A DNA stretch of 64,000 nucleotides. Source: Escherichia coli. Lineage in GTDB: Bacteria; Pseudomonadota; Gammaproteobacteria; Enterobacterales; Enterobacteriaceae. Positions 45,183 to 63,528 of the stretch are shown piece after piece. The position numbers were made by a program, and so were the translations under genes. Location of the stretch: NCBI RefSeq assembly GCF_011045215.1, contig NZ_CP049201.1; one strand, given 5' to 3'. The notes below the pieces were generated by a model. The model was not told where the DNA came from, made no database searches, and saw only the letters and a list, made by a program, of their open reading frames with translations. Position 1 is the stretch's first letter, and each line of letters begins with the position of its first letter.

Positions 45183-45267
45183 GCCGAAGTGGCGAAATCG
45201 GTAGACGCAGTTGATTCAAAATCAACCGTAGAAATACGTGCCGGTTCGAGTCCGGCCTTCGGCACCA
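45183..45267 (+). tRNA. leuX: tRNA-Leu (anticodon CAA)
   Basis: 85-nt sequence GCCGAAGTGGCGAAATCGGTAGACGCAGTTGATTCAAAATCAACC...GGTTCGAGTCCGGCCTTCGGCACCA; anticodon loop TTCAAAA; long variable arm; CCA end. Confidence 0.93.
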
Positions 45268-45456: not shown

Positions 45457-46707
45457 ATGGCACTTACTGATATCAAAGTTAGGACTACCAAGCCCTCCGA
45501 CAAACCTTTCAAACTCACAGATGGGCAGGGTATGCACCTGCTGATCAACCCCAATGGTTCAAAATACTGGCGACTCCAATACCGTTTCGATGGCAAACAG
45601 AAAGTTTTAGCATTGGGTGTTTATCCAATGGTCTCTCTTGGTGAAGCTCGCAGGAAACGAGATGAGGCTAAAAAGTTGGTATCTGATGGTATCGACCCTT
45701 CCGAGAAGAAAAAGGCAGACAAGATCGAGCAGAGCGAAGCTCTTACTTTTGAATCTGTTGCCAGGGACTGGCATAAGGCTTGTAAAAGGAAATGGTCAGA
45801 TTCCCATAGCGAGAGAGTTCTAAAAAGCATGGAAGATGGTCTCTTTACTGCTCTTGGTAAAAGAAAAATATCCGAGCTTAATACCAGAGATCTTCTTGCC
45901 CCTATCAAGGCTGTTGAAGCTTCTGGGCGACTGGAAGTTGCTTCCCGCCTACAGCAAAGAACAACGGCAGTGATGCGATATGCTGTCCAGAACGGGCTGA
46001 TAGATTACAACCCTGCCCAGGAGATGGCAGGAGCTATTGCAGTAGCTAAAAGAGTCCACAGGCCAGCTTTGCCATTCGAACGATTCTCAGAACTTTTAGA
46101 ACGAATTGATAGTTTCAAGGGTAGAAAACTCACGAAGTTAGCCGTAAAGCTGACATTGCTCATTTTCATTCGTTCCAGTGAACTTAGGTTTGCTCGTTGG
46201 TCAGAGATAGATTTCGACAATGCCATGTGGACTATCCCTGGGGAACGTGAGCCATTGCCAGGGGTCAAACATTCTCATCGAGGCTCAAAAATGAAGACAC
46301 CACACCTCGTGCCGTTAAGTCGCCAGGCTATAGAACTCCTCAAAGCTATCAAAGAAATCAGCGGTGAATGTGAACTTGTATTCATTGGTGATCATGATTT
46401 TAGAAAGCCTATGAGTGAAAACACGGTAAACAAGGCTTTAAGGTCTATGGGCTACGACACTACGGTTGAAGTATGTGGACATGGTTTTCGTGCGATGGCA
46501 TGTAGTGCGTTGATCGAATCGGGAAAATGGTCAAGGGATGCTGTTGAACGGCAGATGAGCCACCAAGAGCGAAACTCCGTTCGTGCTGCCTACATTCATA
46601 AAGCAGAACACCTTGATGAAAGAAGGCTTATGTTGCAGTGGTGGGCTGATTACCTTAATGCCTTGAAAGATAGGTTTATCAGTCCCTTTGATTTTACAAC
46701 AAAGTAG
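45457..46707 (+). CDS. intB: P4-family tyrosine integrase (IntB-like) with N-terminal DUF4102-type domain
   Basis: 416 aa, MALTDIKVRTTKPSDKPFKLTDGQGMHLLINPNGSKYWRLQYRFDGKQK N-terminus typical of tRNA-associated island integrases; C-terminal HGFRAMA...R...Y catalytic region; lies 190 bp from the leuX 3' end. Confidence 0.9.
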   Translation: MALTDIKVRTTKPSDKPFKLTDGQGMHLLINPNGSKYWRLQYRFDGKQKVLALGVYPMVSLGEARRKRDEAKKLVSDGIDPSEKKKADKIEQSEALTFESVARDWHKACKRKWSDSHSERVLKSMEDGLFTALGKRKISELNTRDLLAPIKAVEASGRLEVASRLQQRTTAVMRYAVQNGLIDYNPAQEMAGAIAVAKRVHRPALPFERFSELLERIDSFKGRKLTKLAVKLTLLIFIRSSELRFARWSEIDFDNAMWTIPGEREPLPGVKHSHRGSKMKTPHLVPLSRQAIELLKAIKEISGECELVFIGDHDFRKPMSENTVNKALRSMGYDTTVEVCGHGFRAMACSALIESGKWSRDAVERQMSHQERNSVRAAYIHKAEHLDERRLMLQWWADYLNALKDRFISPFDFTTK

Positions 46708-46794: not shown

Positions 46795-47934
46795 ATGTCC
46801 ACAATTAACCCCGCAATTTTTTCTTTTTTCTCTGGTTCAGGATTTCTTGATCTTGGATTTGAAAAAAATGGTTATGAAGTGGTTTTCGTGAATGAATACC
46901 ATGCTCCGTTTATGGATGCATATAAACATTCGAGGAAAAAATTAAATATAGCACCACCTCGTTTTGGGTATGCAGAGTGCAGTATTGAAGATGTAGAACA
47001 TGAAAAAATTAAGTCTTCTATGCTTCAACTTAAAAATGAGGGGCGATTGACTGGATTTATTGGTGGTCCACCATGCCCGGATTTCTCTGTAGCGGGTAAA
47101 AATAAAGGTCGAGATGGTGAAAACGGTCGGCTTTCACAAAGCTATATTGATATCATTCTTGAAATGAAACCAGATTTCTTTCTTTTTGAGAATGTTAAAG
47201 GTCTATACCGTACCAGTAAACATAGGGAATTTTTTGACCATTTAAAAACTCAATTAGAATCGGTTGGTTATTGTTTGCATGAAAAACTAATAAATTCTAT
47301 TGAATATGGTGCTCCTCAAGATAGGCAACGAATCATATTGATTGGTTTCCTTGATGAAAAATATGCAAGCCAATTCAATTGGGGGCAAAGAGTCTACCCT
47401 GAAAGAACTGCATTTGAATATAAATGGCCGACGACAAACCAATTTTCAGAAAACACTTCTGTTATAAAACCAAAGGGTATCCCAGAAGAGTTAACAGTAG
47501 AGCATTGGTTCAAGAAAAACCAGGTTGATAATCATCCAAATGCAAAGCATGTATTCGCGGCAAGAGCAGGGCTTGCGAGGTTTTTGACTGTCGAAGAAGG
47601 GGATGATAGTAAAAAATCCTATAAAAGGTTACATAGATGGAGATTTTCACCAACTGCTGCTTACGGTAATAATGAGGTACATTTACATCCTTATAAACCA
47701 AGAAGAATTACTGTTGCCGAAGCATTAGCAATTCAGTCTTTACCAAAAGAATTTGAATTACCTGCTTATATGACTCTGTCTAATATGTTTAAAACTGTCG
47801 GTAACGGTGTACCCTACTTAGCAGCGGCCGGTATTGCCAAATCTATTATAGAGCATTTAGGAATCGAATATGAGAGTAACTGCGGCGAACTTAGCACAGG
47901 CGATTGCCAATCTACCAAGAAACACGCAGTTTAA
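46795..47934 (+). CDS. DNA (cytosine-5)-methyltransferase
   Basis: 379 aa with C5-MTase motifs: I FSGSGFLDLGFE (FxGxG), IV GGPPCPDFS (Pro-Cys), VI FLFENV, VIII QDRQR, X GNGVP near C-terminus; AT-rich. Confidence 0.85.
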   Translation: MSTINPAIFSFFSGSGFLDLGFEKNGYEVVFVNEYHAPFMDAYKHSRKKLNIAPPRFGYAECSIEDVEHEKIKSSMLQLKNEGRLTGFIGGPPCPDFSVAGKNKGRDGENGRLSQSYIDIILEMKPDFFLFENVKGLYRTSKHREFFDHLKTQLESVGYCLHEKLINSIEYGAPQDRQRIILIGFLDEKYASQFNWGQRVYPERTAFEYKWPTTNQFSENTSVIKPKGIPEELTVEHWFKKNQVDNHPNAKHVFAARAGLARFLTVEEGDDSKKSYKRLHRWRFSPTAAYGNNEVHLHPYKPRRITVAEALAIQSLPKEFELPAYMTLSNMFKTVGNGVPYLAAAGIAKSIIEHLGIEYESNCGELSTGDCQSTKKHAV

Positions 47935-48946
47935 TTATGTAAATGTGCGAAATTCGGGAAGAATCATTGTAACGAATGTTCAACTTCCCGAAGGCCCAAT
48001 AGAATTCAAAAGATTCGATCCAAAAAAGGGTGAGACACTGCATAGTTCTAAATCGGAAAGCATCTCCACACAAATGTTGTGGAGATTGGCTAATGCTTTA
48101 CAGGAAGATGTCCCTGTCAATTTGGATCGTATTTTTGGTGCAAGCTATAATACACGTGCTGTTCTCGAAAGCCTTTTGGCCCATACTCCTGAGTTTTATT
48201 GGTGTAAGCTTGATCGCCTTGAGGTAATGAACACTCAGAAAAATATTAAAAAAGGTCACAAGCACCTTATTTATAGACCAAATGACCCACATGAAAATGG
48301 TGTAGCAATAGAACATACTACTAATGTTATAATTTCTGAAATGAATTTAGATGTTGTCCATCAATCAGTTGATATAGAGACAATCTTACCTACTAAAGGA
48401 ATGACGATTGAGGAAAAAAGACGTCATGCACAAATTCAAATCTCATTAGTAAAAATAGGTCATTACTTAGGTTATCGGACATGGGTTGCAGCAAATGATC
48501 GTGGCCTCCAATATAATGGAAAATCTATAGCCCAAATGGATGGGGTCATAGATAATTTAAGAAATGAACAAGTGCTTCAATCATATGATAAAGCTATCAA
48601 AGAAGCTCGGCTTATAGATTGTATTTGGTTTCGAAATGGAAAATTAATGCCTGCAGTTATGGAGATTGAGCATAGCACTGGTATTAAAAGTGGTTTGGTA
48701 AGGATGAAACAATTTTATGATTATGCACCACAGTTAAAAAATATACGTTGGACCGTTGTGGCACCTGACGAATATAGAAATAAAGTTATAGAGTTTTCTA
48801 ATATGCCACAATTTAAAGAATTAGATACTCGATTCTTCCCCTATTCTGCTGTAGAGGAACTCTATTCATTATGTGCAAGAAGGAATCCTCAAGGAATTAC
48901 AGACGATTTCCTTGATGCATTCATGGAAAAGTGTGTGACACATTAA
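47870..48946 (+). CDS. Putative nuclease-like partner of the methyltransferase (candidate restriction endonuclease); function inferred
   Basis: 358-aa ORF; ATG with AGGA SD overlaps MTase 3' end by 65 nt (translational coupling); C-terminal D...E-x-E-x(6)-K-like stretch (LIDCIWF...VMEIEHSTGIK) compatible with a PD-(D/E)xK core. Confidence 0.45.
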   Translation: MRVTAANLAQAIANLPRNTQFNYVNVRNSGRIIVTNVQLPEGPIEFKRFDPKKGETLHSSKSESISTQMLWRLANALQEDVPVNLDRIFGASYNTRAVLESLLAHTPEFYWCKLDRLEVMNTQKNIKKGHKHLIYRPNDPHENGVAIEHTTNVIISEMNLDVVHQSVDIETILPTKGMTIEEKRRHAQIQISLVKIGHYLGYRTWVAANDRGLQYNGKSIAQMDGVIDNLRNEQVLQSYDKAIKEARLIDCIWFRNGKLMPAVMEIEHSTGIKSGLVRMKQFYDYAPQLKNIRWTVVAPDEYRNKVIEFSNMPQFKELDTRFFPYSAVEELYSLCARRNPQGITDDFLDAFMEKCVTH

Positions 48947-49083: not shown

Positions 49084-49893
49084 ATGAGAGTAATTAGCCC
49101 CTTTGAGGAATTGAAGAACTGGTTTAATCTTGATAACTATGAACCGATAAAATCGTTTACAATCAAGGAACTACATAGAGAGATTGTCTTTAGAGAAGCG
49201 ATTTTCGACAGTGTAAATTTTGGATGGGAAGATGATAATCAAAATTTAAGGTCTATCCTTGAAGGTAATCCTATTTTAAGCAGACAAGATAATAATCATG
49301 GTCATTTTGGCAAGGGCCAAAGACATGTTGCGCAGGTTAGCTTTGGTGATATAAAAAAATTAGAGAATAAGTTGATAATGTTTAGCATGGATTTTTTTGA
49401 AGAAAATGGTGATTTCAAAAAAGAGTTGAAAAAGAAACCAATAACAAAAACTATGAGAGACTTTTTTCTCAACAAAAATAGCAGCAAGATGTATGTATCA
49501 TTTGATTTGGGGTTATCTAGTGATGAGGAAATTATATCAGCCCTGCAAACTATGCTTCCAACTCTAAGGAAAGAATACGAGATTGACCCAGTAAAAACAG
49601 AAAAGATAGGGCTCGCAAAAATAAGAAAACTTGTCGATTACAACATTATTCCTATGATGGACTTACTAATTTGGTCAAAATTCAAAAAAGCAAAAATCTC
49701 AAATATGGTCTTGTCTCGTGTGTTGTATCCTGATTTCACTCACGAGATTAGAGGCGAAGATCACATTAAAGATACAGACAGGCCCATTGCTGAGAAGGCT
49801 TTAAATGGAGAGATAACTCGTAGTTTGGAGTACTTTCTTAGTAAAAACAGTCATCTCATCAACATACCGATTTCAGAACTCGGATCTCTCTAG
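49084..49893 (+). CDS. Hypothetical protein (269 aa), no recognisable motif
   Basis: Long AT-rich ORF, same strand as R-M-like pair. Confidence 0.55.
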   Translation: MRVISPFEELKNWFNLDNYEPIKSFTIKELHREIVFREAIFDSVNFGWEDDNQNLRSILEGNPILSRQDNNHGHFGKGQRHVAQVSFGDIKKLENKLIMFSMDFFEENGDFKKELKKKPITKTMRDFFLNKNSSKMYVSFDLGLSSDEEIISALQTMLPTLRKEYEIDPVKTEKIGLAKIRKLVDYNIIPMMDLLIWSKFKKAKISNMVLSRVLYPDFTHEIRGEDHIKDTDRPIAEKALNGEITRSLEYFLSKNSHLINIPISELGSL

Positions 49894-50058: not shown

Positions 50059-50265
50059 ATGAATACAACCAATCAAAGCTTAATTCGTTTACCAGAAGTC
50101 TTGAAACGAACTGGTTTCGGCAAGGCCTGGATCTATCGTCTGATCAGTGAAGGTCGGTTTCCGGCACCCGTTAAGATCGGAATTCGTGCCGTTGCTTTTG
50201 TCGAGAGTGAAGTTGACGAGTGGATTCTATCAGTTATCGAAACAAACAGAATTAAAGTTGCTTAA
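50059..50265 (+). CDS. alpA: AlpA-family transcriptional regulator / excisionase-like DNA-binding protein
   Basis: 68 aa; LIRLPEVLKRTGFGKAWIYRLISEGRFPAPVKIG...VAFVESEVDEWI matches the AlpA/MerR-like HTH of prophage CP4-57-type regulators. Confidence 0.85.
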   Translation: MNTTNQSLIRLPEVLKRTGFGKAWIYRLISEGRFPAPVKIGIRAVAFVESEVDEWILSVIETNRIKVA

Positions 50266-50286
50266 TTAAACCTAGGAGAGATTTTT

Positions 50287-50601
50287 ATGAATATCGAAGA
50301 ATTTATGAATGAAGAAAACCATATGTGCAATTTAGGCGAGGATCTTTTTTGCAAGATCTTCGAACCCGGAGCGATTTATGATTTGCCGAATAGCGATTTT
50401 AATAAAGAAATCATTTACTGGCTCAGTCAGTATCTTGTCGGAAATTTGAGACAACCTTTAGACGCGATCTCTGAGCTTGATATTTTCGAGCAGTTTTATG
50501 TTTACGAGACATGGTTCTCGCTAATTAAATGCCCAGATGAAATTAGAAATTTATCGAAACGGATAATTCGATATCAGATTGGGTTAAAAACCATTCTTTG
50601 A
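50287..50601 (+). CDS. Hypothetical protein (104 aa)
   Basis: ORF immediately downstream of alpA, 21-nt gap. Confidence 0.5.
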   Translation: MNIEEFMNEENHMCNLGEDLFCKIFEPGAIYDLPNSDFNKEIIYWLSQYLVGNLRQPLDAISELDIFEQFYVYETWFSLIKCPDEIRNLSKRIIRYQIGLKTIL

Positions 50602-50732
50602 AAGAACCTATATTTAGTACTATTTTGTAAATTGCATTGTTGAAATGATAGTGCTATTTGCTTTTTGATTTACAAAACATCTTTAACTTCTTTTAAAATA
50701 ATGGGTTAACTATTTTAAGTGAAAAGAAAGGA

Positions 50733-50762
50733 TTATAATATCCCTCTAGAGGGATATTATAA
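50733..50762. promoter_or_regulatory. 30-bp perfect palindrome upstream of the recombinase operon (candidate operator or recombination site)
   Basis: TTATAATATCCCTCTAGAGGGATATTATAA is perfectly self-complementary; lies about 130 bp upstream of the first recombinase gene in an AT-rich leader. Confidence 0.5.
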
Positions 50763-50893
50763 ATTTTCGGCCGGTATGCGTCATTGTAAAAGGGAATAAT
50801 ATTAAATTCAGGAAAATATATTTGTAAATTGCTTATGTTATATGCTTTATTTATTTTCACTGACAATTAAATGTAAATAGAGGCGATATTACT

Positions 50894-52156
50894 TTGAAAT
50901 ATAAAATAAAAAGATTGAAGAATAAAGATGGTATCAGAAGTTGCATTATTATTAATGAGAGCAACGGATTACCCTTGGTTTATTCTAACTTATATATGAG
51001 TGTTATTTCACGAACAAATAGCTATTCATTTTCAACAATGGAAGCAATAGCAAATGCTTTGCTTTTATTTGAAAGATATAATGCTTACATGAATGTGGAT
51101 GTTTTTGATATGGTAAATCCTGACATCGAAAAACTTGTCTCGAACAAAGGATATTTATTCGGGTTAATGAATGCCCTTTCTTACAGAAACGACTTAGAGA
51201 ATGTTACAAGCATTCTTAAAGAACAACATGTCTCTAAAAGAACCCTTTATTTCAAGATAATGACAATTGAAAATTACGTCAAATGGTTTTTTGATAACAT
51301 TGCTATCAATAATATTGATTCTTCTCGTTATGAAGCAATCAGTCGAGCATTTGATTTTATAAAGCCAAGAATAGAGAACGGAAAGAATTACAATATTGAA
51401 AGCGAAAGCAAATCATTGACAAATGAGCAAGTTACAACTTTGACTGATATGGTAAGTGTTAAATCTAAGATTAATCCATTTTCGGAGCATGTAAGGTTTC
51501 GAAATAATCTAATAATTAAAATTTTATTAGAGACAGGTATTAGGGGAGGGGAACTACTTAATATTAAGTTGGTTGATTTTGACTATGTCCACAAAAGTCT
51601 ATGCATAGTAAGAAGGCCAGATGATCAAAACGAACCACGATTAAGGCAACCATTGGTTAAAACTTTAGAAAGAAAAATACCATTGAGTATAGAATTGACT
51701 GAGTTAATACAGAATTATATTAGTGATTTCAGAGGTAAGCAGTGTCATGCAGGGGAGCATGACTATCTGCTTGTTACTCATAGCAGTAAAGGTCAATTAG
51801 GTCATGCATTAACTATTTCAGGTTATCAGAAAATTTTCGAACAAATTAGGAAAAATAGTAATGTTTTGAGCGATATTGTGGGGCATTCGCTAAGACATAC
51901 TTGGAATGTGAAATTCTCAGAAATGATGCTCATGAATTCGAACTCTCAGGAATATATTACTTATGAGAAAGTAAGAAATTATCTTATGGGGTGGAAAAAG
52001 AATAGTACAACCTCAGATATCTATAACCAAGCATTTATAGCACAAGAAAGCCGAAAAATAATGGCTGTTATTAATCCACTCAAAAACATAGTAGAGGACA
52101 AATCCAATGTTTCAAACTCTAAGAAAGCTACAAGAAAGTCAATATTCGGTTTTTGA
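50894..52156 (+). CDS. Tyrosine recombinase 1 of a three-recombinase operon
   Basis: 420-aa ORF (TTG at 50894; first ATG at 50996); conserved ETGIRGGELLNIKLVDF (box I Arg), HSLRHTW (HxxR) and ...SDIYNQ (Tyr) catalytic elements. Confidence 0.75.
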   Translation: MKYKIKRLKNKDGIRSCIIINESNGLPLVYSNLYMSVISRTNSYSFSTMEAIANALLLFERYNAYMNVDVFDMVNPDIEKLVSNKGYLFGLMNALSYRNDLENVTSILKEQHVSKRTLYFKIMTIENYVKWFFDNIAINNIDSSRYEAISRAFDFIKPRIENGKNYNIESESKSLTNEQVTTLTDMVSVKSKINPFSEHVRFRNNLIIKILLETGIRGGELLNIKLVDFDYVHKSLCIVRRPDDQNEPRLRQPLVKTLERKIPLSIELTELIQNYISDFRGKQCHAGEHDYLLVTHSSKGQLGHALTISGYQKIFEQIRKNSNVLSDIVGHSLRHTWNVKFSEMMLMNSNSQEYITYEKVRNYLMGWKKNSTTSDIYNQAFIAQESRKIMAVINPLKNIVEDKSNVSNSKKATRKSIFGF

Positions 52157-53432
52157 AACCAAGGATGGTAATTTCAAAGTGAACTTTTCTTATTCCAAGT
52201 GGAAGATAAGTGAAAGTATAACATTGAACATTGATTCTTTAAGAGTGGTCATCAGTGCATATATACCTATCAAAACCACTTTGGCATATTTCGCTATAAA
52301 TTATAGTGCCAGTTATACTAAGAAAATGTTTTATGCAGTAAAGCATTACATTAAGGCCTGTAATACGAATGATAGCTTGTTTTCTAAAGATTGCATAAAG
52401 TATTACTATAAAGTTGTGAGCTCATTAGATTACACACATGCAGAGACAGTCAAATATTTTTTTATGAAGATGAGTGGTCTTTACCCATCTTTGTTTTCGG
52501 CAGAAGCAATCATATTTTTAGAAAATATTAAAGTTAAAAAAACAAATGCAAACAAGTCTATAAAGACACATGATTATAAAAAAGGTCCCTTTAGTGACTC
52601 GCAATTAAAGGTAATTATAGATTCTGTAGCGATAGCTTATAAGGAAGAAAAGGTAAGTCTGTCAAACTATCTGCTAACCTTCCTTGTTGCATATTCCGGG
52701 CGGCGACCTATGCAAATATCTCAACTTGAAGCTGGTGATCTCTTTGCTTTTAATGGAGAGTACTTTCTCAATATCCCAAGAATTAAACAACGAAATGGAT
52801 ATAGAAAAGAGTTTAGAAAATTACAAATTCCAGAAGAGCTTTTTAGCCAATTGACATATCTCGTTGAAGCTGTGAATTCGCTGGTCAGTGACACATTAAA
52901 AATCGATTTAAGTGAAAAACAAAAGAGAAAACTACCAATTTTTATAAACACATATCCATTCAAAAAAGGATGTGTTGAGCTAAACATGATTGAAAGTGGT
53001 GGATTAAAACTTAACCCCTATGCCATAACACTAAAAATAAGGAACACTATAAATCGTTCAATAAATGAATATCAAGCCTATCTGGGGTGTATAAATTCGC
53101 GCAGATTTAGATATTCATTAGGCACTAAGGTTGCACAATTGGGTTATAGTCCTTCACTGATAGCAAATGTTTTGGACCATTCTTCAATCAATTCTGTTAT
53201 GAGTTATATAGAAAATACAGCGGAAAATGGCAAGAGAATTAATGAAGCTGTAAATGAACTAATGAAGCCACTGGCTAACAAATTTATTGAGGGAAAAGAG
53301 CTTCAGAAAGAGTTAGATTCTTTGAAGCATTTGATAGAAGAATACTGCGGTGGATATAAAACTAACTCTTTTGATAATACAGCAATATCGTTAGTAACTA
53401 ATTCTATCGACGATATGATCAATAGCATTTAA
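52107..53432 (+). CDS. Tyrosine recombinase 2 (divergent catalytic motifs)
   Basis: 441 aa; SD AGAGGA before ATG; AYSGRRPMQISQLEAGDL (box I), RRFRYSLG...LDHSSINSVMSYIE (box II-like with Tyr); overlaps upstream gene by 50 nt. Confidence 0.7.
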   Translation: MFQTLRKLQESQYSVFETKDGNFKVNFSYSKWKISESITLNIDSLRVVISAYIPIKTTLAYFAINYSASYTKKMFYAVKHYIKACNTNDSLFSKDCIKYYYKVVSSLDYTHAETVKYFFMKMSGLYPSLFSAEAIIFLENIKVKKTNANKSIKTHDYKKGPFSDSQLKVIIDSVAIAYKEEKVSLSNYLLTFLVAYSGRRPMQISQLEAGDLFAFNGEYFLNIPRIKQRNGYRKEFRKLQIPEELFSQLTYLVEAVNSLVSDTLKIDLSEKQKRKLPIFINTYPFKKGCVELNMIESGGLKLNPYAITLKIRNTINRSINEYQAYLGCINSRRFRYSLGTKVAQLGYSPSLIANVLDHSSINSVMSYIENTAENGKRINEAVNELMKPLANKFIEGKELQKELDSLKHLIEEYCGGYKTNSFDNTAISLVTNSIDDMINSI

Positions 53433-53447
53433 AAGAAGGATAAAGTG

Positions 53448-55052
53448 ATGAAAGAAATCCATGATAAAATGATTAATAACTTCATTATCGCTAATAAGGC
53501 CCATGCGAAAAATTTTGGAAATTTTGAGTGGGATAATTCAAGTTGGGGAGGCGGAATTACATTTTTTAGCGGAATCAAGGTTAGAATGGGGAACAAGAAT
53601 AAGAAATTAATGAATTATAACATTGCAGAGTTCGCAAAAGCATATGTATGGCATGAGTGCTTTCATGATTTATCTGTAGCTTTCAGAGTGCTGAGATTAT
53701 TTAGGATATTAGAAATTGCCATAGGTAAAACAAATAAAGAAGTTAAGATTTCAAGTATAGATCATAAAGTATTAGATGAAGTTATGACTATTGTTCAAGA
53801 AAATTTTGCAATATCCACTTCTTATAAAATATATTTAGATCTTAGGGTATTATGTTCTTTTATGTCTAAGAACGAAATGTTGCCAGAATCCATTACACGA
53901 TGGTCATATCCATTTAAGGCATATGATGCTTACACAAATAGCACAATGGATTCGATGGGAAATTTATCCAATCAGAAAAAACTTCCTGATGAAAAGGCTA
54001 TAGATTTTATTGGTAAAATATTTAGCTCTAATCCAGTTAATGAAAGGGATATATTTACATCTTCTATTTTTGCATTGCTCTTATGTGCTCCATCTCGAAT
54101 TAGTGAAATTATGCTTTTAGAAGAGGACTGTGAAGTTATAGTTGAAGATAGTAATGGCATATCAAGATATGGTTTGCGATTTCTTTCTCTGAAGGGCTTT
54201 GGATACAATACCAAATGGATTCCAGACTGTATGGTTTCTGTAGCTTCAAAGGCTATCATGCGATTGAAAAAACTTACAAGGAATGCAAGGGTTGTTTCTC
54301 GGTTAATAAAAGCAGGGGAAATTAATTTATACGAGTCATTAAACAAAAGTGCGTTTGATTGTTTAACAATTGAAGATCTCCACAAACTTGGCTTTGTTAT
54401 AAATCAATTAAATATCTCCCAAGAAAATCTAAAATTCTTGGCTAAGATAAAACATGGTACAGTCAGTGTAAAAGCATTTTGGATTTATATAGAGCGAAAG
54501 AATGTTAATTCTGAAAATATTAATGCTAATTTATGCTCCATAAATCATAATTTATTGGACTCTATCAAGGGTGCTGATATTTTTACAACAATTAAGGCAT
54601 CTTCAAAGTATTTTAGAGCGGATTTTCGCACCGATAATATGAATAACATATTTCATAGGAATATACATTTTAACTGTGATGGTTCTGTTTTAATTTTCCG
54701 CAGCCATCAAATTAGACATTTACTTAATACTATAGCTCAACGAAGCGTATTGTCAGAGATACAAATTGCCCAATGGTCTGGGAGAAGGAGTGTTAAGCAG
54801 AATTCAGTATATGATCATATGTCTCACAACGAGTTATCAGAACTATCAAGGAAACTATTGAACGGAAACACCTACGAAGAAACAAAAATTTCAGCATCTT
54901 CATTTAATGAACAATCGATTATTATGAATTTGATTAAAGATAAATTTGAAAAACTAGAATTAAAAATCCAAAATTCAGATCCAAGAAAAAGAAAATATAT
55001 TCTGGAAAAAATTAAAGATTTAAGATTGGAAATTGAATACATATTAATGTGA
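53448..55052 (+). CDS. Tyrosine recombinase 3
   Basis: About 534 aa (GTG-ATG at 53445/53448); CAPSRISEIMLLEEDC (box I), HQIRHLLNTIAQ (HxxRH), ...SVYDHMSHNE (Tyr). Confidence 0.7.
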   Translation: MKEIHDKMINNFIIANKAHAKNFGNFEWDNSSWGGGITFFSGIKVRMGNKNKKLMNYNIAEFAKAYVWHECFHDLSVAFRVLRLFRILEIAIGKTNKEVKISSIDHKVLDEVMTIVQENFAISTSYKIYLDLRVLCSFMSKNEMLPESITRWSYPFKAYDAYTNSTMDSMGNLSNQKKLPDEKAIDFIGKIFSSNPVNERDIFTSSIFALLLCAPSRISEIMLLEEDCEVIVEDSNGISRYGLRFLSLKGFGYNTKWIPDCMVSVASKAIMRLKKLTRNARVVSRLIKAGEINLYESLNKSAFDCLTIEDLHKLGFVINQLNISQENLKFLAKIKHGTVSVKAFWIYIERKNVNSENINANLCSINHNLLDSIKGADIFTTIKASSKYFRADFRTDNMNNIFHRNIHFNCDGSVLIFRSHQIRHLLNTIAQRSVLSEIQIAQWSGRRSVKQNSVYDHMSHNELSELSRKLLNGNTYEETKISASSFNEQSIIMNLIKDKFEKLELKIQNSDPRKRKYILEKIKDLRLEIEYILM

Positions 55053-55061
55053 GGAGATTAT

Positions 55062-55460
55062 ATGGCAAGAAAGTTTTATGATAAAGAAATAAAAGCTATT
55101 GTTAAACTTATTGAAACCTGGAGTAAGCCTGATTTCACTTGGGATTCTTTATGCGTGGCTTGCAAAAAAATTTTAGGTAAAGTACCTACACGGCAAGCAT
55201 TAAGCCAGCATAGTGAGATTGTCGTTGCGTATAGGACCAGAAAAAGATCTGGTATGGTTAAACGTCAAAATACGAAGTTACCCGGTAGCCTGAGCCTTGC
55301 GGCGAAAAGAATAGAACGACTTGAAAATGATAATTCGGCACTAAAATATGAAAATAATAATTTACTGCTTATGATTCAAAGAATGCACGAAAATGCTTAC
55401 AGGCATAATATATTGGCTTCTATTCTTGAAGAAGAATTTCCACAGAGAGCAAGAAAATAA
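55062..55460 (+). CDS. Small basic protein, fourth gene of the recombinase operon (possible DNA-binding accessory factor)
   Basis: 132 aa, starts 9 nt after recombinase 3; Lys/Arg-rich with predicted coiled-coil C-terminus. Confidence 0.55.
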   Translation: MARKFYDKEIKAIVKLIETWSKPDFTWDSLCVACKKILGKVPTRQALSQHSEIVVAYRTRKRSGMVKRQNTKLPGSLSLAAKRIERLENDNSALKYENNNLLLMIQRMHENAYRHNILASILEEEFPQRARK

Positions 55461-55545: not shown

Positions 55546-55983
55546 ATGCAATTTATGGACAAACAACACAATTTTCCAGTGGAAACACTGGAAGAGCAGC
55601 TTATTATTATCGTTGATAAATATATCTCAAAACGGTACCAGCCGGGCGATAAAAGTTTCTCATACCAGCTATACCTGCTTTTTGTTGGCTATCACTTAAA
55701 GTATTTCTACCCCAAAAAACTTTATACTCGCTCTAATCGCAACATAGACAACATTATGACAATGTTTAGTTCTGTATACAAATGTCTTACAAGTACTTTG
55801 TTACAGCGATTAAATAATAAGGAAGCTGTTATCAGGGAGCTAAACTCTCTCGTTAACTATATTGATAACAATCAAGAACGAGCAGAAGAAATCTTTATAG
55901 CTATCAAAACTCAATATGAGATAAAAGCAATAGAGAAAGAACTAACCCATGAAGTCGTTAGAGTAAAAAATGTTAGATTATAA
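55546..55983 (+). CDS. Hypothetical protein (145 aa)
   Basis: ORF ending at an intrinsic terminator. Confidence 0.5.
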   Translation: MQFMDKQHNFPVETLEEQLIIIVDKYISKRYQPGDKSFSYQLYLLFVGYHLKYFYPKKLYTRSNRNIDNIMTMFSSVYKCLTSTLLQRLNNKEAVIRELNSLVNYIDNNQERAEEIFIAIKTQYEIKAIEKELTHEVVRVKNVRL

Positions 55984-56010
55984 AAGCTCCCGAAAGGGAG
56001 CTTCATTTTA
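55982..56010. terminator. Bidirectional intrinsic terminator
   Basis: AGCTCCC-GAAA-GGGAGCT hairpin with flanking A/T runs between convergent genes. Confidence 0.7.
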
Positions 56011-56023
56011 CTAATTTTCTTTA

Positions 56024-56287
56024 TTAATAACTTCCTACTTGCCAGCCATCATCTGATTTTATTAATTTAACTGTTCCAGCTTGCTTTGTTCCGCTCATAT
56101 CCATAATTATATTGCACTTATAGCTTTTATCAGATTCTTTTGTGCAATCTACTTTTTTTACTGAAGTCAGATAGCTTCCAGTCCATTTTCGCATAGCTTT
56201 AAAAATATCATCTTGGGAAGGCTCACTACTACATGCAGTAAGAAGAAATACGGAAATAATAACAGCAAGGACCGAAGATATTTTCAT
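56024..56287 (-). CDS. Small lipoprotein
   Basis: 87 aa; signal peptide with lipobox LLTAC. Confidence 0.6.
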   Translation of the reverse strand: MKISSVLAVIISVFLLTACSSEPSQDDIFKAMRKWTGSYLTSVKKVDCTKESDKSYKCNIIMDMSGTKQAGTVKLIKSDDGWQVGSY

Positions 56288-56311
56288 TAGACTTAATCCT
56301 GATTAAGTATG

Positions 56312-56698
56312 TTACTGAAAAATGCCAGATTTTGTATTATTATTATCAGTAGAGAATGTCCATTTGCTGACAATTTCGCCTTTAAAATCTATTTCAAGAG
56401 TTTTGGACTGAGTCTGTGAACCACCAGTTAGTAGCCCAACTACAGGAATGAAAGTCGAGGCATTGAACTGATTGTTATACATAAAATATCTCCATTGCTC
56501 GTTGCCATCATCAAGAGTCGTTCTTGTATCTGGTTCACCTAACTTAGCGAGTAGCTCGTTCTTAGTAGTCTTGTTTTTAATGATCTTTGACTGAAGACTT
56601 TGTGCAGTTTCATTTTCAATTTGTTGGTTCCCGGATGTTGAGCAGCCAGAAATTAAAAATATTGCAATGAAAAAGGCGGTAACAATAGATTTATTCAT
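56312..56698 (-). CDS. Lipoprotein
   Basis: 128 aa; signal peptide with lipobox LISGC. Confidence 0.6.
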   Translation of the reverse strand: MNKSIVTAFFIAIFLISGCSTSGNQQIENETAQSLQSKIIKNKTTKNELLAKLGEPDTRTTLDDGNEQWRYFMYNNQFNASTFIPVVGLLTGGSQTQSKTLEIDFKGEIVSKWTFSTDNNNTKSGIFQ

Positions 56699-56727
56699 TC
56701 TATCTTCCTTATTATATTTGGTCAGGG

Positions 56728-57006
56728 TTAACTTTTATGTGTGAAAACGGCTCTGTGGGCAAATTTCTTGCGTAAATAAAATCTTAAAGAAATTGCTGAG
56801 GCAAAATAGATAACGACAGTTAATATAAAACTTTGACTGATAGCGAATATGAAGAAAGCAATTACTAACAGCACAATTCCTATGAGTAAAGCTAACCAGG
56901 CCGAAGGTTCACCATAATTTATTGTTGCGTGACAGCCGATACAGACACGAACTCCGAACGGACTCTCTTTGAAGCAGAACGGGCACTTAATGGTCTCTTT
57001 ACTCAT
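56728..57006 (-). CDS. Small membrane protein with N-terminal zinc-ribbon
   Basis: 92 aa; CPFC...CIGCH then one hydrophobic helix. Confidence 0.5.
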   Translation of the reverse strand: MSKETIKCPFCFKESPFGVRVCIGCHATINYGEPSAWLALLIGIVLLVIAFFIFAISQSFILTVVIYFASAISLRFYLRKKFAHRAVFTHKS

Positions 57007-57259: not shown

Positions 57260-58405
57260 CTATAAACGAATTTTTATCGCCTTGTTTAAAGGTTTCATTG
57301 CGTAGATATTTGAGAAGGTCGTGTGTGTTTTGTGAAGAATGGTCTTACCAAAGCTTCTCAGAAGCTCGATGTAATGCTTTATGGAAGCAAGCCACTCTAC
57401 GAATCTGAGATGCTTTTGCCGTTGTACTGCATTTTTTTGAAGAATCTTTCCTACGATTTCGTTTCGTTTGTCTTCTCTAAGCCGTAATTCCAGTTCTGCA
57501 ATTTTTTCAACGATACTTTCCTTTCTCTCAGTGGTTTTCAACACTGTTGCAGGAGCAGGAGCAGCAGGTTGGTCTTTTGTCGATATGTCGCTTCGTAGAG
57601 CTTCTAAGTGGTCGGGGTTGTAGTTAAGCCGATTACTGAGATTTGCCCAGGAGTAGCTCTTGCCCAATTGTGAAGCTTTGAAAGCTATGCCTGTGTATTC
57701 GAAAGAGAAGCCGTTCATTTTACCGGTAGAGGCAATATTGGCCTTCCAAGATACTTCAGCTTCTTCCAGCCTCTTGATAAAAGTTAGAAGGTCCGGCTTA
57801 TCAGATAAACTTTTATCAAGTATCTGCTGCAGAGCTTCTCTTGGTGAAAGCACCCCGGTTCGTTCCGATAGCATTTTCTCATTACGGGACACTCTCTTCC
57901 GCTTCGGTTGTGCTTGCGAGGGGGGAGATGCAGTTTTGGTCACTGTCAGGCCATGAGCGATTTCGAGTTTACTGATGATCTGTGTGCTGATGAGGTTTTC
58001 GTTCCTACCCAAGTAGAGCTTCCCACCATTGAGATCTATGCGACTTGCGATAATGTGTATGTGCTGGCCATCGTCGTCATGAAGCACATAGCAACGAAGG
58101 TGAGTATCCCTGAACCCCATCCTCTTCATGTAGTCATCTGCGATAATGGACCACTGTTCATTCGTTAGTGTTTCACCGTCGGGTAAGCGAAGTGAGTTGT
58201 GCCAAACGGGTTTTGCGACATCTAGGCGAAGATGCTTGGTGCTATCGAATTCAGCGATCATTTCAACGGCTGAATCACTTAACATGTTCCCGCCAATGAC
58301 GACTGGATCGCTTTTGTGGTGTGCTCCCGATTGTAATACATAACGAACAACACCAGCGAAGCTCTTACCCCTCTTGATCTTCCGCATACCCTTCACGAGG
58401 GACAC
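57260..58405 (-). CDS. Mobilisation relaxase (MobA/VirD2-like nuclease domain)
   Basis: 381 aa; three-histidine relaxase motif HDDDGQHIHIIASRIDL; immediately downstream of a MobC-like gene. Confidence 0.75.
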   Translation of the reverse strand: MSLVKGMRKIKRGKSFAGVVRYVLQSGAHHKSDPVVIGGNMLSDSAVEMIAEFDSTKHLRLDVAKPVWHNSLRLPDGETLTNEQWSIIADDYMKRMGFRDTHLRCYVLHDDDGQHIHIIASRIDLNGGKLYLGRNENLISTQIISKLEIAHGLTVTKTASPPSQAQPKRKRVSRNEKMLSERTGVLSPREALQQILDKSLSDKPDLLTFIKRLEEAEVSWKANIASTGKMNGFSFEYTGIAFKASQLGKSYSWANLSNRLNYNPDHLEALRSDISTKDQPAAPAPATVLKTTERKESIVEKIAELELRLREDKRNEIVGKILQKNAVQRQKHLRFVEWLASIKHYIELLRSFGKTILHKTHTTFSNIYAMKPLNKAIKIRL

Positions 58406-58739
58406 TCCAAAAATCTGTTCTTAACAAGTTGTGACGAAGCTCTTCAAGTTGTCGCTTCACAGCGAAAAGCTCTGTATGAGTAAGCTGGCTATCTTTACTC
58501 TTACTGTCGATATGGAGAGCAATACGATTCAACTTTTGTGATATGTCAGACAATTTTTTCCAGGCTTCAGTATTAATTGTCGGTACTACTGGTGGCAGGT
58601 TTTGCAGAAATGACATGCGGAGCCATTCACCTTTACTTTTATTACCTCGTTTTATATTTAAAATCTGTAATTCATTGTTGTTGAGTCGAACACTTATACA
58701 ATGTATTCTAATTCTGTCATCTAATCTTAATTTAGCCAT
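58365..58739 (-). CDS. MobC-family relaxosome accessory protein
   Basis: 124 aa; overlaps relaxase start by 41 nt; sequence pattern typical of MobC. Confidence 0.65.
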   Translation of the reverse strand: MAKLRLDDRIRIHCISVRLNNNELQILNIKRGNKSKGEWLRMSFLQNLPPVVPTINTEAWKKLSDISQKLNRIALHIDSKSKDSQLTHTELFAVKRQLEELRHNLLRTDFWSVPREGYAEDQEG

Positions 58740-58885: not shown

Positions 58886-60049
58886 TTAAGGATGATCTAT
58901 TGAAACAAACTTTTGACTAAACTCCAGCCATCTTGCATTATCAACATCCTTCACAAAAGCAATCAGACCTGCGACATGATTGTAAAAGCCAATTGGAGAG
59001 TCAAATTTTTCATGTCTTGCAACTTCTGAGAGACCAAATTTTTTTATTGAGTAAAGGTGGCGTTCAATACGTTTATAAGTTTGTTTAGATAATCGAGGGA
59101 CATTGCCATCAACAAGTAATCCTAAAACTATTTTTTTTGAACCAGGTCCAGCTACTCTTATTTTGCTTACGTTTTCTTTGAAATGGTGCTTACGAATGAT
59201 GCTGATAATGTTATTTTGTATTTTTCCAACCGAAACACCGTCGGGTAGAGTACCACCGCAGGATAATGTTATATCATCAGCATATCGAGTATAAGTGAAG
59301 CCATATTTATTAGCATATTCAGATAGAGAAATATCTAACTTTACAGTGGCTAAATTACTAAGCATTGGGCTACTCGGTGCCCCTTGAGGTAGCACTCCTA
59401 ACGGCCATGGTTCTGATATGTCCCAAAAAAGGCTCTTCTCTTTATTTTGTCCGTAAAGCTTATATTCCTTAGTTGAGTGCTTAGGAACAGAAATTAGAGA
59501 TTGTAAATGTTGTGGTAAACGTATAGTTGTGCATAGCCTTGATAGTTCAAATGCTATTAATGGCCGATATCCAGCATTTTTAAAAACCATATAAACATCA
59601 GATTCATTTATTGAATAAAAGAAATCGGAAATGTCGAATTGGAAGAGCCATTTAGCACCACAATGCTGTTCTGCACATTTTCTGATGCCACCATTAGGAT
59701 GGAAAGCAAAAGAAGTATTATGGGGAACTAACTTTTTTAATATTTCACTATTGATGAAATGCTGTACTTTAAATATCTCGCCAGTTACAGCATGAATATG
59801 GCGTCTTCCACCTGAACGTTTTTTTATAGCAAACATGCGATAATTTGCTGATTCACGGCGGCGTGATACAGTGGATCGTAGCAAGCGATAATCAACACCA
59901 GTAATTTTTGAAAGATGGCGTAATGTAAAAATTACAGGGAGATTATTTTTCTTCAGATTACTTGCATAATTTCTTAAGTTTAGAGCCTGTGTCTTCCCTA
60001 AGGATGACTCTGCATTTTGATAAAGTTGGTGTGCTGACCAGATTTCCAT
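58886..60049 (-). CDS. Retron-type reverse transcriptase
   Basis: 387 aa; RT motifs FQFDISDFF (A), LPQGAPSSP (B'), YTRYADDITLS (C); by-eye alignment to remembered retron Ec86 RT (QGAPSSP.LANL...YTRYADDLTLS, IDLEDFFPS); C-terminal VLGLLV in place of the retron VTG. Confidence 0.85.
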   Translation of the reverse strand: MEIWSAHQLYQNAESSLGKTQALNLRNYASNLKKNNLPVIFTLRHLSKITGVDYRLLRSTVSRRRESANYRMFAIKKRSGGRRHIHAVTGEIFKVQHFINSEILKKLVPHNTSFAFHPNGGIRKCAEQHCGAKWLFQFDISDFFYSINESDVYMVFKNAGYRPLIAFELSRLCTTIRLPQHLQSLISVPKHSTKEYKLYGQNKEKSLFWDISEPWPLGVLPQGAPSSPMLSNLATVKLDISLSEYANKYGFTYTRYADDITLSCGGTLPDGVSVGKIQNNIISIIRKHHFKENVSKIRVAGPGSKKIVLGLLVDGNVPRLSKQTYKRIERHLYSIKKFGLSEVARHEKFDSPIGFYNHVAGLIAFVKDVDNARWLEFSQKFVSIDHP

Positions 60050-60237
60050 TCACCTATCCTTTGAGCCCAGGGGGCCATCAGTGTCATACATTTTCCGAGT
60101 CCTCGATGGCCGTTAATGTATGACATTGAAGGGCGGCGTAGCCGCCTTTGCGTCAGATCTTTCCAGAGATGTTTCTCCAACATCCCCATCCGTTGTAACA
60201 AAAGCCACAACAGATTCTGTCAAACAAGCGGTGAACT
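60050..60237 (-). ncRNA. Candidate structured ncRNA (possible retron msr-msd-like template) in the PRTase-RT spacer
   Basis: 188-nt non-coding spacer directly upstream of the RT; 15-bp stem (60078-60092 pairs with 60115-60129, one G-U) with 22-nt loop; adjacent GGCGGC-GTA-GCCGCC hairpin (60132-60146). Confidence 0.4.
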
Positions 60238-62296: not shown

Positions 62297-62339
62297 TATG
62301 TATATTAAAAAAAGGAGGTTGTCAATATTTAGAGGTTAG

Positions 62340-62588
62340 TTAACCACCAAATGTTTTTTTCTTAGGTTGTGGGGGCTCTGCATTAAGTATGATAGTTTTA
62401 ATATTTGCATTTATTTGATTGATATTATCAGTCAATATATTAATAACTGATAATGCTTCTACAGGTGTGCTAAATGATGATTCTAAAAACACGCCTGAGC
62501 CTTTCAAAAATATATGGTAAGTGAGTATGCCATTTTCTTCATTTTCATATATATCATAAAGTTCATTTACTGTTTCGTACAATTTCAT
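62340..62588 (-). CDS. Hypothetical small protein (82 aa)
   Basis: ORF between the ATPase-partner pair and the ankyrin gene. Confidence 0.45.
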   Translation of the reverse strand: MKLYETVNELYDIYENEENGILTYHIFLKGSGVFLESSFSTPVEALSVINILTDNINQINANIKTIILNAEPPQPKKKTFGG

Positions 62589-62643
62589 TATTATACTCCT
62601 TGATAATGATGGTTTATTTCAATGGGCTCGCGATATCACTACC

Positions 62644-63519: not shown

Positions 63520-63528
63520 GAAATCCCC

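What the first reader, a model, noticed from the sequence alone, without database searches (positions are those of the whole stretch)
50059..55460. AlpA regulator followed by an operon of three tandem tyrosine recombinases plus a small fourth gene (GInt/Tn554-like recombination module)
Three consecutive, overlapping or tightly spaced genes each carry tyrosine-recombinase catalytic boxes (R...HxxR...Y), with the second divergent, followed by a 132-aa basic protein. This four-gene layout matches what has been described for GInt-type mobile islands (ginABCD) and resembles Tn554-family tnpABC. It suggests a second, nested mobile element inside the leuX island, distinct from the P4-type integrase at the tRNA.
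Basis: partly seen in the sequence, partly recalled or inferred. Interest (0 to 1): 0.7.

Follow-up and report, generated by a model that had tools for sequence, protein, structure and literature searches.

The report
GInt-type recombinase operon inside mobilizable island
The four genes are a real ginABCD-type (GInt family) recombinase operon that is already catalogued in E. coli, but here it is a swappable internal module of a leuX-integrated mobilizable defence island, not a separately bounded nested element.

Summary
Window 50894-55460 carries four tightly packed genes. Two are clear tyrosine recombinases. The third is a 535-aa protein that no profile library recognises, but it has a Cre/XerH-like predicted fold and a complete catalytic set. 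The fourth is a 132-aa helical protein. All four are collinear homologues of GinA-D of a canonical ssb-inserted GInt (26-34% identity). A 99.4%-identical ETEC locus is already listed as ginC/ginD orthologues (Idola 2023), and E. coli "IME__GInt" islands are tabulated (Hochhauser 2023).

The "nested second element" reading is not supported. Island ends are set by a terminal integrase (leuX, ssrA or the mutS 5' end). The operon sits at a fixed slot between DUF6387-AlpA-hyp104 and an X-relaxase module. Sister islands carry either very divergent gin types or a phage-O-like HTH plus repeats in that slot. No empty site or att-like repeats were found. Exchange breakpoints lie in conserved flanking genes.

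Across 80 species-level loci, ssb-linked GInts (37) and Enterobacterales island-embedded operons (29) form separate classes. AlpA most likely serves the terminal integrase. A lineage-specific palindrome lies upstream of ginA. What the operon recombines is unknown. Known family, under-described architecture, modest interest.

The parts
45183..45267 (+). tRNA-Leu(CAA) leuX, attachment site of the island
   Evidence: ARAGORN. The 23-nt 3' end occurs once in the window, so the distal island end lies beyond 64000.
45457..46707 (+). P4-type terminal integrase (416 aa) that sets the island's chromosomal junction
   Evidence: PHROG integrase E 5e-68. Same gene next to leuX in L001-L004 and L008. Unrelated to GinA outside the catalytic core.
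46795..48946 (+). Cargo slot 1: type II restriction-modification pair (Dcm-like methyltransferase plus endonuclease)
   Evidence: PADLOC MTase_II E 1e-163 and REase_II E 2e-124. Absent from sister island L004.
49084..49893 (+). DUF6387 backbone gene
   Evidence: RefSeq and Pfam naming in homologous loci. Terminal gene of the island in ssrA-type, Salmonella and Pantoea versions.
50059..50265 (+). AlpA-family HTH, probable RDF/regulator of the terminal integrase
   Evidence: PHROG excisionase/regulator E 3e-10. PF05930 in homologues. An AlpA+DUF6387 pair ends EARL/ICEKp258.2 islands.
50287..50601 (+). hyp104, conserved backbone ORF of unknown function
   Evidence: 78-88% identical in islands that carry a different gin type. 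No family hit.
50733..50762 (.). Perfect 30-bp palindrome TTATAATATCCCTCTAGAGGGATATTATAA, 132-161 nt upstream of ginA; candidate operator or recombinase core site
   Evidence: Single copy in the window, none expected by chance. Conserved with symmetric changes in L005, L011 and L015. Different perfect palindromes occupy the same position in other gin lineages.
50894..52156 (+). ginA homologue, catalytic tyrosine recombinase (420 aa)
   Evidence: 34% identity over 396 aa with GinA of the ssb-type GInt L019, E 1e-67. 29% over 217 aa with the P. stutzeri GinA fragment. R-K-HxxR-W-Y conserved.
52107..53432 (+). ginB homologue, tyrosine recombinase with RRFR in place of HxxR (441 aa)
   Evidence: 26% over 383 aa with L019 GinB, E 4e-43. 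NF041502 E 5e-73. R, K, R, H and Y conserved.
53445..55052 (+). ginC homologue, large divergent tyrosine-recombinase-fold protein (535 aa) with a full catalytic set
   Evidence: 31% over 473 aa with L019 GinC, E 1e-70. Invariant R218, K, H421, R424, W444 and Y456. Fold matches XerH and Cre. Listed as a ginC orthologue in Idola 2023 for the 99.4%-identical ETEC locus.
55062..55460 (+). ginD homologue, small helical protein (132 aa): N-terminal helical bundle plus a long helix at residues 75-114
   Evidence: Aligns end to end with eight GinD homologues including the ssb-type GInt (34-80% identity, 20 invariant residues). AF2 pLDDT 81. No significant fold match.
55546..55983 (+). X145, backbone gene that always follows ginD in island-embedded operons
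   Evidence: 77-83% identical across islands with different gin types. Present in all 29 class-B loci by definition of the class and in none of 37 ssb-type loci. A diverged copy is also present in gin-less islands.
55984..56003 (+). Terminator-like hairpin closing the ginABCD-X transcription unit
   Evidence: Consensus scan; not tested further.
56024..57006 (-). Three small backbone ORFs (87, 128 and 92 aa; two lipoprotein-like)
   Evidence: ORF list. Weak lipoprotein family hits. Conserved in sister islands.
57260..58739 (-). Mobilization module: MOBP-type relaxase (381 aa) plus a 124-aa accessory ORF
   Evidence: TraI/MobA(P) relaxase E 3e-18. 79-82% identical in sister islands. PF03432 in homologues.
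58886..61458 (-). Cargo slot 2: retron type III-A (reverse transcriptase plus PRTase)
   Evidence: PADLOC RT_III-A E 6e-160 and PRTase_III-A E 2e-93.

Best explanation
Window 50894-55460 is a ginABCD operon of the GInt (Tn6571) gene family. GinA and GinB are catalytic tyrosine recombinases. GinC is a larger, very divergent recombinase-fold protein, here with all catalytic residues intact. GinD is a small helical accessory protein. The operon is not a free-standing GInt. It is an internal, exchangeable module of a leuX-integrated, relaxase-bearing mobilizable defence island. That island's ends are made by its own terminal P4-type integrase, with AlpA as that integrase's likely directionality factor or regulator. 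The module order is: integrase/att, cargo 1, DUF6387-AlpA-hyp104, ginABCD, X plus small ORFs plus MOBP relaxase, cargo 2. Shown here: homology, collinearity, catalytic residues, purifying selection, the fixed slot, the alternative modules, and island ends independent of gin. Inferred: by analogy with Pseudomonas GInts, where all four genes are needed for attL x attR recombination and integration with 6-nt staggered cuts, the four proteins form one site-specific recombination machine. That machine would give the island a second, integrase-independent recombination route on a site not yet identified. The lineage-specific palindrome upstream of ginA (50733-50762) is the best candidate for its operator or core site.
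For: Homology and order. Published listing of the 99.4%-identical ETEC locus as ginC/ginD orthologues. E. coli islands tabulated as IME__GInt. Catalytic residues and fold. Purifying selection. Same backbone at leuX, ssrA and the mutS 5' end, and in Salmonella and Pantoea, always with a terminal integrase. Flanking backbone proteins are 77-93% identical while Gin proteins are only 26-38% identical between types. gin-less sister islands exist with the same backbone and identical chromosomal junctions. Among 80 species-level loci there are 29 Enterobacterales operons followed by X (relaxase in 20, AlpA and DUF6387 in 19) versus 37 ssb-linked operons with none of these; the ssb class forms one GinC clade and the island class lies outside it. 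Palindromes co-vary with gin lineage.
Against: No recombination site, circular junction or target for the operon was identified, so activity is inferred only. GinB has Arg in place of the His of HxxR. The leuX island's distal end lies outside the window. The analogy rests on Pseudomonas GInts whose proteins are under 30% identical, and only fragments of those sequences were available for comparison. The operon can be absent from otherwise similar islands (182 E. coli genomes carry the alternative module), so it is dispensable for island maintenance.
Confidence: 0.7

Rival explanations
1. One reading: the operon is the 5' end of an independent GInt nested in the leuX island. Its own attL would lie just upstream of ginA, with cargo (X, relaxase, retron and more) and an AT-rich 3' end carrying attR. 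It would excise and integrate separately from the P4-type integrase.
For: Canonical GInts have exactly this polarity, with the gin operon first and cargo starting at the ginD stop. DNA similarity between gin types resumes within 6 nt of the ginD stop. Distantly related GInts can share one target, which would fit two gin types behind the same hyp104 gene. A nearly identical cassette sits in diverged backbones in E. coli and Salmonella.
Against: gin+ and gin- islands at mutS share the same outer junctions and the same X-relaxase-cargo layout, so that DNA belongs to the integrase-bounded island. There is no hyp104|X empty junction in 5426 E. coli genomes. No conserved repeat pair links the ginA upstream region to downstream DNA in five islands. 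The E. coli/Salmonella shared segment ends inside AlpA and inside X, which indicates homologous recombination rather than att sites. Island-embedded GinC sequences lie outside the ssb-GInt clade in several deep lineages, which argues against sporadic insertions.
Confidence: 0.15
2. The operon has been co-opted by the island to form or maintain circular copies, either by strand-biased 'copy-out' as in SEs and some GInts or by multimer resolution. It would functionally replace the replication-type module found at the same slot in gin-less sister islands.
For: The slot holds either ginABCD or an HTH protein weakly similar to the phage replication protein O N-terminal domain (E 6e-4 and 2e-3), next to about 1 kb of non-coding DNA with a 49-bp repeat present 2.3 times. 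GInts and SEs often recombine attL x attR without leaving an empty site. gin type does not track the chromosomal site.
Against: Purely positional inference. The O-like hits are below the curated cut-off. No gin site was identified at or near the island ends. No experiment bears on it.
Confidence: 0.12
3. The operon is an inactive remnant of an old GInt insertion that is carried along passively.
For: No att sites were found. GinB lacks the canonical His. One E. coli copy has an internal stop in ginC (L006).
Against: All four ORFs are intact in the window and in most relatives across genera. Catalytic residues are invariant. dN/dS is 0.06-0.21 at saturating dS. The His-to-Arg change is also present in canonical ssb-type GinB.
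Confidence: 0.03

Closest known systems
[quoted passage not shown] 2017 (PMC5385486)
   Same: There are four collinear genes: two RHRY recombinases, a larger divergent recombinase-fold protein and a small helical protein. All four are homologous to those of an ssb-inserted GInt (26-34% identity). The genes are tightly packed like an operon. Downstream DNA changes right at the ginD stop. The island carries defence cargo.
   Different: The operon is not at the island border: 5.4 kb of island DNA, including another integrase, lies upstream. The island has its own terminal integrase, an AlpA and a MOBP relaxase, whereas GInts are described as non-mobilizable with no other integrase. No GInt-type attL/attR repeats were found. 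GinC here keeps the first Arg and the Tyr that were reported missing in GinC. These operons fall in a separate phylogenetic class restricted to Enterobacterales.
Strand-biased circularizing integrative elements (SE; intA-tfp-intB-srap), Idola et al. 2023 (PMC10214605)
   Same: Both have a four-gene recombination module with two catalytic tyrosine recombinases, one recombinase-fold protein and one small accessory protein. Both occur in Gammaproteobacteria.
   Different: Gene order differs: in SEs the non-catalytic Tfp (>550 aa) is second. The published protein networks separate GinC/GinD from Tfp/Srap. There are only marginal hits to the gamma-mobile-trio GmtY recombinase (E 6e-4) and VPA1267 family (E 0.06) models, whose link to SEs I recall only from memory and did not test.
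Tn554 (tnpA-tnpB-tnpC)
   Same: It has tandem tyrosine recombinases followed by a small protein, and it shows site-specific insertion.
   Different: It has only two recombinases and is found in Firmicutes. No sequence similarity surfaced in the NCBIfam or PHROG scans. Tn554 proteins were not compared directly.
RIT (recombinase in trio) elements
   Same: They carry three adjacent tyrosine recombinase genes.
   Different: From my own knowledge, RITs have no fourth small gene and are bounded by long inverted repeats. No such repeats flank this trio, and a GinD gene is present.
EARL/ROD21-type genomic islands such as ICEKp258.2 (PMC10763509) and integrative mobilizable elements in general
   Same: The backbone logic is shared: a terminal P4-like integrase at a tRNA or tmRNA gene, an AlpA-family RDF next to a DUF6387 gene at the other end of the circular map, a relaxase, no T4SS in the sequence examined, and defence cargo.
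   Different: EARL islands carry a MOBQ relaxase, TraD and pilus genes and have no gin operon. This family has a MOBP-type relaxase and the gin or O-like module slot.

Membership tests
GInt (ginABCD gene set) | Four collinear genes homologous to ginA, ginB, ginC and ginD | tested here: met
   BLASTP against ssb-type GInt L019: GinA 34% (E 1e-67), GinB 26% (E 4e-43), GinC 31% (E 1e-70). GinD is 34% identical with 20 invariant residues. P. stutzeri fragments hit the positional counterparts. The ETEC twin locus is listed as ginC/ginD orthologues.
GInt (element architecture) | The gin operon forms the 5' end of the island, directly beside attL and the chromosomal target gene, with no other integrase | tested here: not met
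   leuX, a P4-type integrase, an R-M pair, DUF6387, AlpA and hyp104 all precede ginA. The same backbone with a terminal integrase is seen at ssrA and mutS and in other genera. For contrast, canonical L019 has ssb|ginA.
GInt (element architecture) | Flanking 10-17-nt imperfect direct repeats and a short AT-rich 3' end | tested here: inconclusive
   No repeat pair conserved across five islands with this gin type and no second copy of the upstream palindrome. The distal end of the island lies beyond the window.
GInt (function) | All four genes are required for excision as a circle and for site-specific integration | not testable with these tools
   Needs genetics and PCR. Only purifying selection and intact catalytic residues could be shown.
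SE (strand-biased circularizing integrative element) | Order intA-tfp-intB-srap, with Tfp/Srap orthologues | tested here: not met
   The order here is recombinase, recombinase, large fold protein, small protein. Only marginal hits to the GmtY and VPA1267 models, far below cut-off. Published clustering separates GinC/GinD from Tfp/Srap.
Tn554 family | Two recombinases (TnpA, TnpB) plus TnpC, with sequence homology to them | not tested
   The gene count differs (three recombinase-fold genes). No Tn554 sequences were available for direct comparison, and no related family appeared.
RIT element | A trio of recombinases without a fourth gene, bounded by long inverted repeats | tested here: not met
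   A GinD gene is present. No inverted repeats bracket 50.6-55.5 kb.
Integrative mobilizable element (the host island) | Integrase at a tRNA gene, an RDF-type HTH and a relaxase, with no conjugative pore genes | tested here: met
   tRNA-Leu, integrase, AlpA and MOBP relaxase. No T4SS genes among ORFs 45-64 kb. The island's distal part beyond 64 kb was not seen.

The most novel reading that the evidence does not exclude
In Enterobacterales, ginABCD operons are not free GInts. They would be an ancient, co-diversifying standard module of integrase-delimited mobilizable defence islands, interchangeable with a Rep(O-like)/iteron module at the same slot. They would supply a replication-independent way to make or keep circular island copies (copy-out without an empty donor site) for mobilization. 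The lineage-specific palindrome upstream of ginA would be their recognition site, bound by GinD or by the recombinases.
Probability: 0.15. Interest if true: 0.6.

Novelty: new variant of a known kind. Interest (0 to 1): 0.35.

Why it matters
GInts and SEs are a recently recognised, mechanistically unresolved class of multi-recombinase elements. About 7% of complete E. coli genomes carry a ginC-like gene (7.5% of replicons in Idola 2023). Most enterobacterial copies seen here are not free GInts. They are a fixed module of relaxase-bearing defence islands that already have their own integrase. This changes how "GInt" counts in Enterobacterales should be read. It also gives a tractable E. coli setting to ask what a four-protein recombinase machine adds to an island that can already excise: gin+ and gin- sister islands exist at the same sites, and there is a candidate palindromic site. 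The gene family itself and this locus are already catalogued, so the finding as written is not a discovery.

Tried and rejected
(1) Empty-site search. A chimeric hyp104+X query against 5426 E. coli genomes found 786 genomes with the backbone but none with the two halves adjacent.

(2) att-repeat search. I compared 330 bp upstream of ginA with all downstream island DNA in five islands of this gin type. Only chance-level AT-rich matches appeared, at non-conserved positions. The general repeat scan of 45-64 kb gave nothing convincing.

(3) A second copy or half-site of the palindrome in the window: none above chance.

(4) The leuX attR repeat is not in the window or in the fetched IAI1 stretch.

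(5) Profile libraries for ORF3 (Pfam, NCBIfam, PHROGs, PADLOC, PDB sequence and profile searches) returned nothing. Only the predicted fold and the family alignment were informative.

(6) The GinD fold search gave no match with E < 1.

(7) PIME family (bioRxiv 2026): rejected, because repA, trbJ and trbL, which define that family, were not seen among the ORFs listed in the window; no homology search for them was run.

(8) Promoter scan of the region: not above shuffled expectation.

(9) I first read the sharp identity breaks at the hyp104 stop and the ginD stop as element ends. I dropped this after the identity profile against Salmonella showed the shared segment ending inside AlpA and inside X. 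The ETEC comparison also showed patchy mosaicism.

(10) Two context look-ups failed because I trimmed the wrong end of minus-strand genes. They were repeated correctly.

Full report
OBSERVATION. The window is an E. coli chromosome segment. tRNA-Leu(CAA) (leuX) lies at 45183-45267, and G+C drops from about 0.53 to 0.30-0.46 beyond it. They are an AlpA-like 68-aa gene (50059-50265) and genes of 420 aa (50894-52156), 441 aa (52107-53432, overlapping the first by 50 nt), 535 aa (53445-55052) and 132 aa (55062-55460).

ORF1 and ORF2 are recognised as tyrosine recombinases (NCBIfam and PHROGs). ORF3 is recognised by nothing. In an alignment of 24 homologues down to 26% identity, R218, K250/K257, H421-x-x-R424-H425, W444 and Y456 are invariant. 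An AlphaFold model (pLDDT 77) matches only tyrosine recombinases: XerH, Cre, Tn1549 Int, XerA, Flp and lambda Int (probability 1.0 for the top hits). ORF1 keeps R, K, HxxR, W and Y. ORF2 keeps R, K, R, H and Y but has RRFR where HxxR is expected.

IDENTITY. Fragments of P. stutzeri DSM 4166 GinA and GinC, printed in Bardaji et al. 2017, hit ORF1 and ORF3 respectively at equivalent positions. The GinB fragment hits ORF2 only weakly. A better yardstick turned up in the data. Loci L019-L021 (E. coli/Citrobacter) read uvrA-ssb|415-520-677-139 aa|two reverse transcriptases|yjcB, which is the ssb-inserted GInt type that Bardaji described. They have plausible attL/attR repeats around ACATATCAA.

The four window proteins align with these in the same order. 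GinA is 34% identical over 396 aa (E 1e-67). GinB is 26% over 383 aa (E 4e-43). GinC is 31% over 473 aa (E 1e-70). GinD is 34% identical with 20 invariant positions across nine GinD sequences. The Arg-for-His change in GinB is also present in the canonical ssb-type protein, so it is a family trait and not decay. dN/dS is 0.06-0.21 against a 56-80%-identical operon.

WHAT IS ALREADY PUBLISHED. Six ETEC genomes carry this region at 99.4% identity and three O55:H7 genomes at 96.5%. For one of them (NZ_CP025916), Additional file 10 of Idola et al. 2023 lists exactly these two genes (WP_001399631, WP_004200789) among 'ginC and ginD orthologs'. That paper reports ginC-ginD blocks in 7.5% of Escherichia replicons. 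Hochhauser et al. 2023 describe GInts (Tn6571 family) as defence-carrying elements in E. coli. Their tables label some islands 'IME__GInt'. The family assignment is therefore not new.

CONTEXT. The island reads as follows:
- leuX and a P4-type integrase
- a type II R-M pair
- DUF6387, AlpA and hyp104
- ginABCD
- X145
- three small ORFs
- a MOBP-type relaxase plus a 124-aa ORF
- a type III-A retron and Nsn-like genes

The same backbone recurs in many E. coli leuX islands. It also recurs at ssrA with the integrase at the other end. It occurs at the 5' end of mutS with a 486-aa integrase. It is also found in Salmonella and Pantoea, again with a terminal P4-like integrase. Written as circles, all versions have the same gene order, with the integrase/att module swapped or inverted.

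IS THE OPERON A NESTED ELEMENT? Five tests argue against it.

(i) Between the window and IAI1-type islands, backbone proteins on both sides are 77-93% identical. The four Gin proteins are only 26-38% identical, and DNA similarity stops at 50591-50603 and resumes at 55454. This means two ancient 'alleles' of a module in one slot, not presence versus absence.

(ii) Islands without gin do exist: L008 at leuX and L016 at mutS. They carry a different module in the slot. It consists of an HTH protein weakly like the N-terminal domain of phage replication protein O (E 6e-4 and 2e-3), about 1 kb of non-coding DNA with a 49-bp repeat present 2.3 times, and a diverged X. This module occurs in 182 of 5426 genomes.

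(iii) At mutS, gin+ and gin- islands have the same outer junction, a duplicated mutS start ending in ATGATGCAGCAGTAT. The terminal integrase therefore sets the island ends.

(iv) No genome among 5426 has hyp104 directly joined to X. No conserved repeat pair links the ginA upstream region to downstream DNA.

(v) A nearly identical cassette (dS 0.03-0.07) sits in a diverged Salmonella backbone (AlpA dS 0.70, X dS 1.6). However, the shared segment runs from inside AlpA to inside X. That is the signature of homologous recombination in conserved flanks, not of att sites.

WIDER PICTURE. A scan of one genome per species returned 80 ginC loci. Of these, 37 have ssb immediately upstream of ginA and no relaxase, AlpA, DUF6387 or integrase within 10 kb. 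Another 29, all Enterobacterales, have X right after ginD. Among those 29, 20 have the relaxase pair downstream, 19 have AlpA and DUF6387 upstream, and 13 have an integrase further upstream within the flank available.

In a neighbour-joining tree of GinC, the ssb class is one clade. The island-embedded operons lie outside it in several deep lineages, with one exception (L043). The association of gin with this island backbone is therefore old and specific.

REGULATORY REGION AND AlpA. A perfect 30-bp palindrome (50733-50762) lies 132-161 nt upstream of ginA and is unique in the window. It is kept, with symmetric substitutions, in operons down to 40% GinC identity. Other gin lineages have other perfect palindromes at the same distance: 16 of 26 island-class loci have arms of 8 bp or more at -138 to -171. 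It therefore belongs to the cassette. It is most simply a binding site for a cassette-encoded dimer. GinD, with a helical N-terminal domain and a 40-residue helix, is the obvious candidate, but this is inference only. A recombinase core site (arms flanking a 4-8-bp centre) is the alternative.

AlpA with DUF6387 also ends the EARL/ICEKp258.2 islands, which encode an integrase and a recombination directionality factor; that the AlpA-family gene is that factor is my inference. The mutS-site gin operons lack AlpA altogether. AlpA is therefore better assigned to the terminal integrase than to the trio.

MECHANISM. What is shown is a conserved, selected, catalytically intact four-gene recombinase module of the GInt family at a fixed slot in an integrase-bounded mobilizable island. 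The rest is inferred from Pseudomonas GInts (all four genes essential; circle formation; 6-nt staggered cuts; often no empty donor site) and from SEs. The inference is that the proteins act together as a site-specific recombination machine. I rate the embedded-module description at 0.7. I rate the nested independent GInt at 0.15, co-option for circle formation or maintenance in place of a Rep/iteron module at 0.12, and an inert remnant at 0.03. The substrate of the machine remains unidentified. That is the main open point.

VERDICT. The gene family and this very locus are already catalogued. The embedded architecture was not found described in the papers I read (it appears only as an 'IME__GInt' label). 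It fails a defining feature of GInt elements, so I file it as a new variant of a known kind with modest interest (0.35).

Noticed in passing
window 50733-50762; also L005, L009, L011, L015, L017, L018 and 16 of 26 island-class loci among L026-L102: There are perfect palindromes 132-171 nt upstream of ginA whose sequence changes with the gin lineage but whose position and symmetry are kept. Examples are ATATCCCTCTAGAGGGATAT, TTCACCTTAAGGTGAA, TTCTTTCACGTGAAAGAA and TCCCCCTATAGGGGGA.
   Followed up: partly
L008 14663-16263; L016 7600-9150: gin-less sister islands carry, in the same slot, an HTH protein weakly similar to the phage replication protein O N-terminal domain. It lies next to about 1 kb of non-coding DNA with a 49-bp repeat present 2.3 times (L008 15686-15799). 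This may be a replication module. It is present in 182 of 5426 E. coli genomes.
   Followed up: partly
window 46795-48946: A type II restriction-modification pair (Dcm-like methyltransferase and endonuclease, overlapping by 65 nt) sits between the leuX integrase and DUF6387. It is absent from some sister islands.
   Followed up: partly
window 58886-61458 (minus strand): A retron type III-A pair (reverse transcriptase 387 aa, PRTase-like 406 aa) lies in the second cargo slot. The msr/msd non-coding RNA was not looked for.
   Followed up: no
window 61694-63921 (minus strand): An ankyrin-like 200-aa ORF is followed by NsnC-like (291 aa) and NsnB-like (130-aa C-terminal fragment ORF) defence genes. 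The NsnB ORF looks truncated, or its start was missed.
   Followed up: no
L010 1500-1870 and 21880-22100; L016, L017, L018, L022: Islands with a 486-aa integrase insert into the 5' end of mutS. They supply a new start and N-terminal codons for mutS, and they leave the original mutS promoter and first roughly 50 nt beside ygbA.
   Followed up: partly
window 52107-53432 and all enterobacterial GinB homologues (L002, L004-L006, L009, L019): GinB has Arg in place of the His of the HxxR box (RRFRY, RRLRY or RQLRI), whereas P. stutzeri GinB has HRFRH. The change is conserved, so it is probably functional.
   Followed up: partly
L043 (Erwinia mallotivora): This is an ssb-linked, canonical-clade gin operon that also has a relaxase, hyp124 and X within 6 kb downstream in inverted orientation. 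It may be a GInt lying beside, or captured by, an island of the other class.
   Followed up: no
window 29001-31000 and 33001-34000: There are two further low-G+C patches (0.31-0.37) well upstream of leuX in otherwise 0.50-0.56 G+C sequence. They were not examined.
   Followed up: no
L003 1184-8582 (E. coli CUVET19-1937): There is tandem accretion at leuX. A 7.3-kb element with a 636-aa integrase sits between leuX and a second copy of the leuX 3' end, ahead of the gin-bearing island.
   Followed up: no
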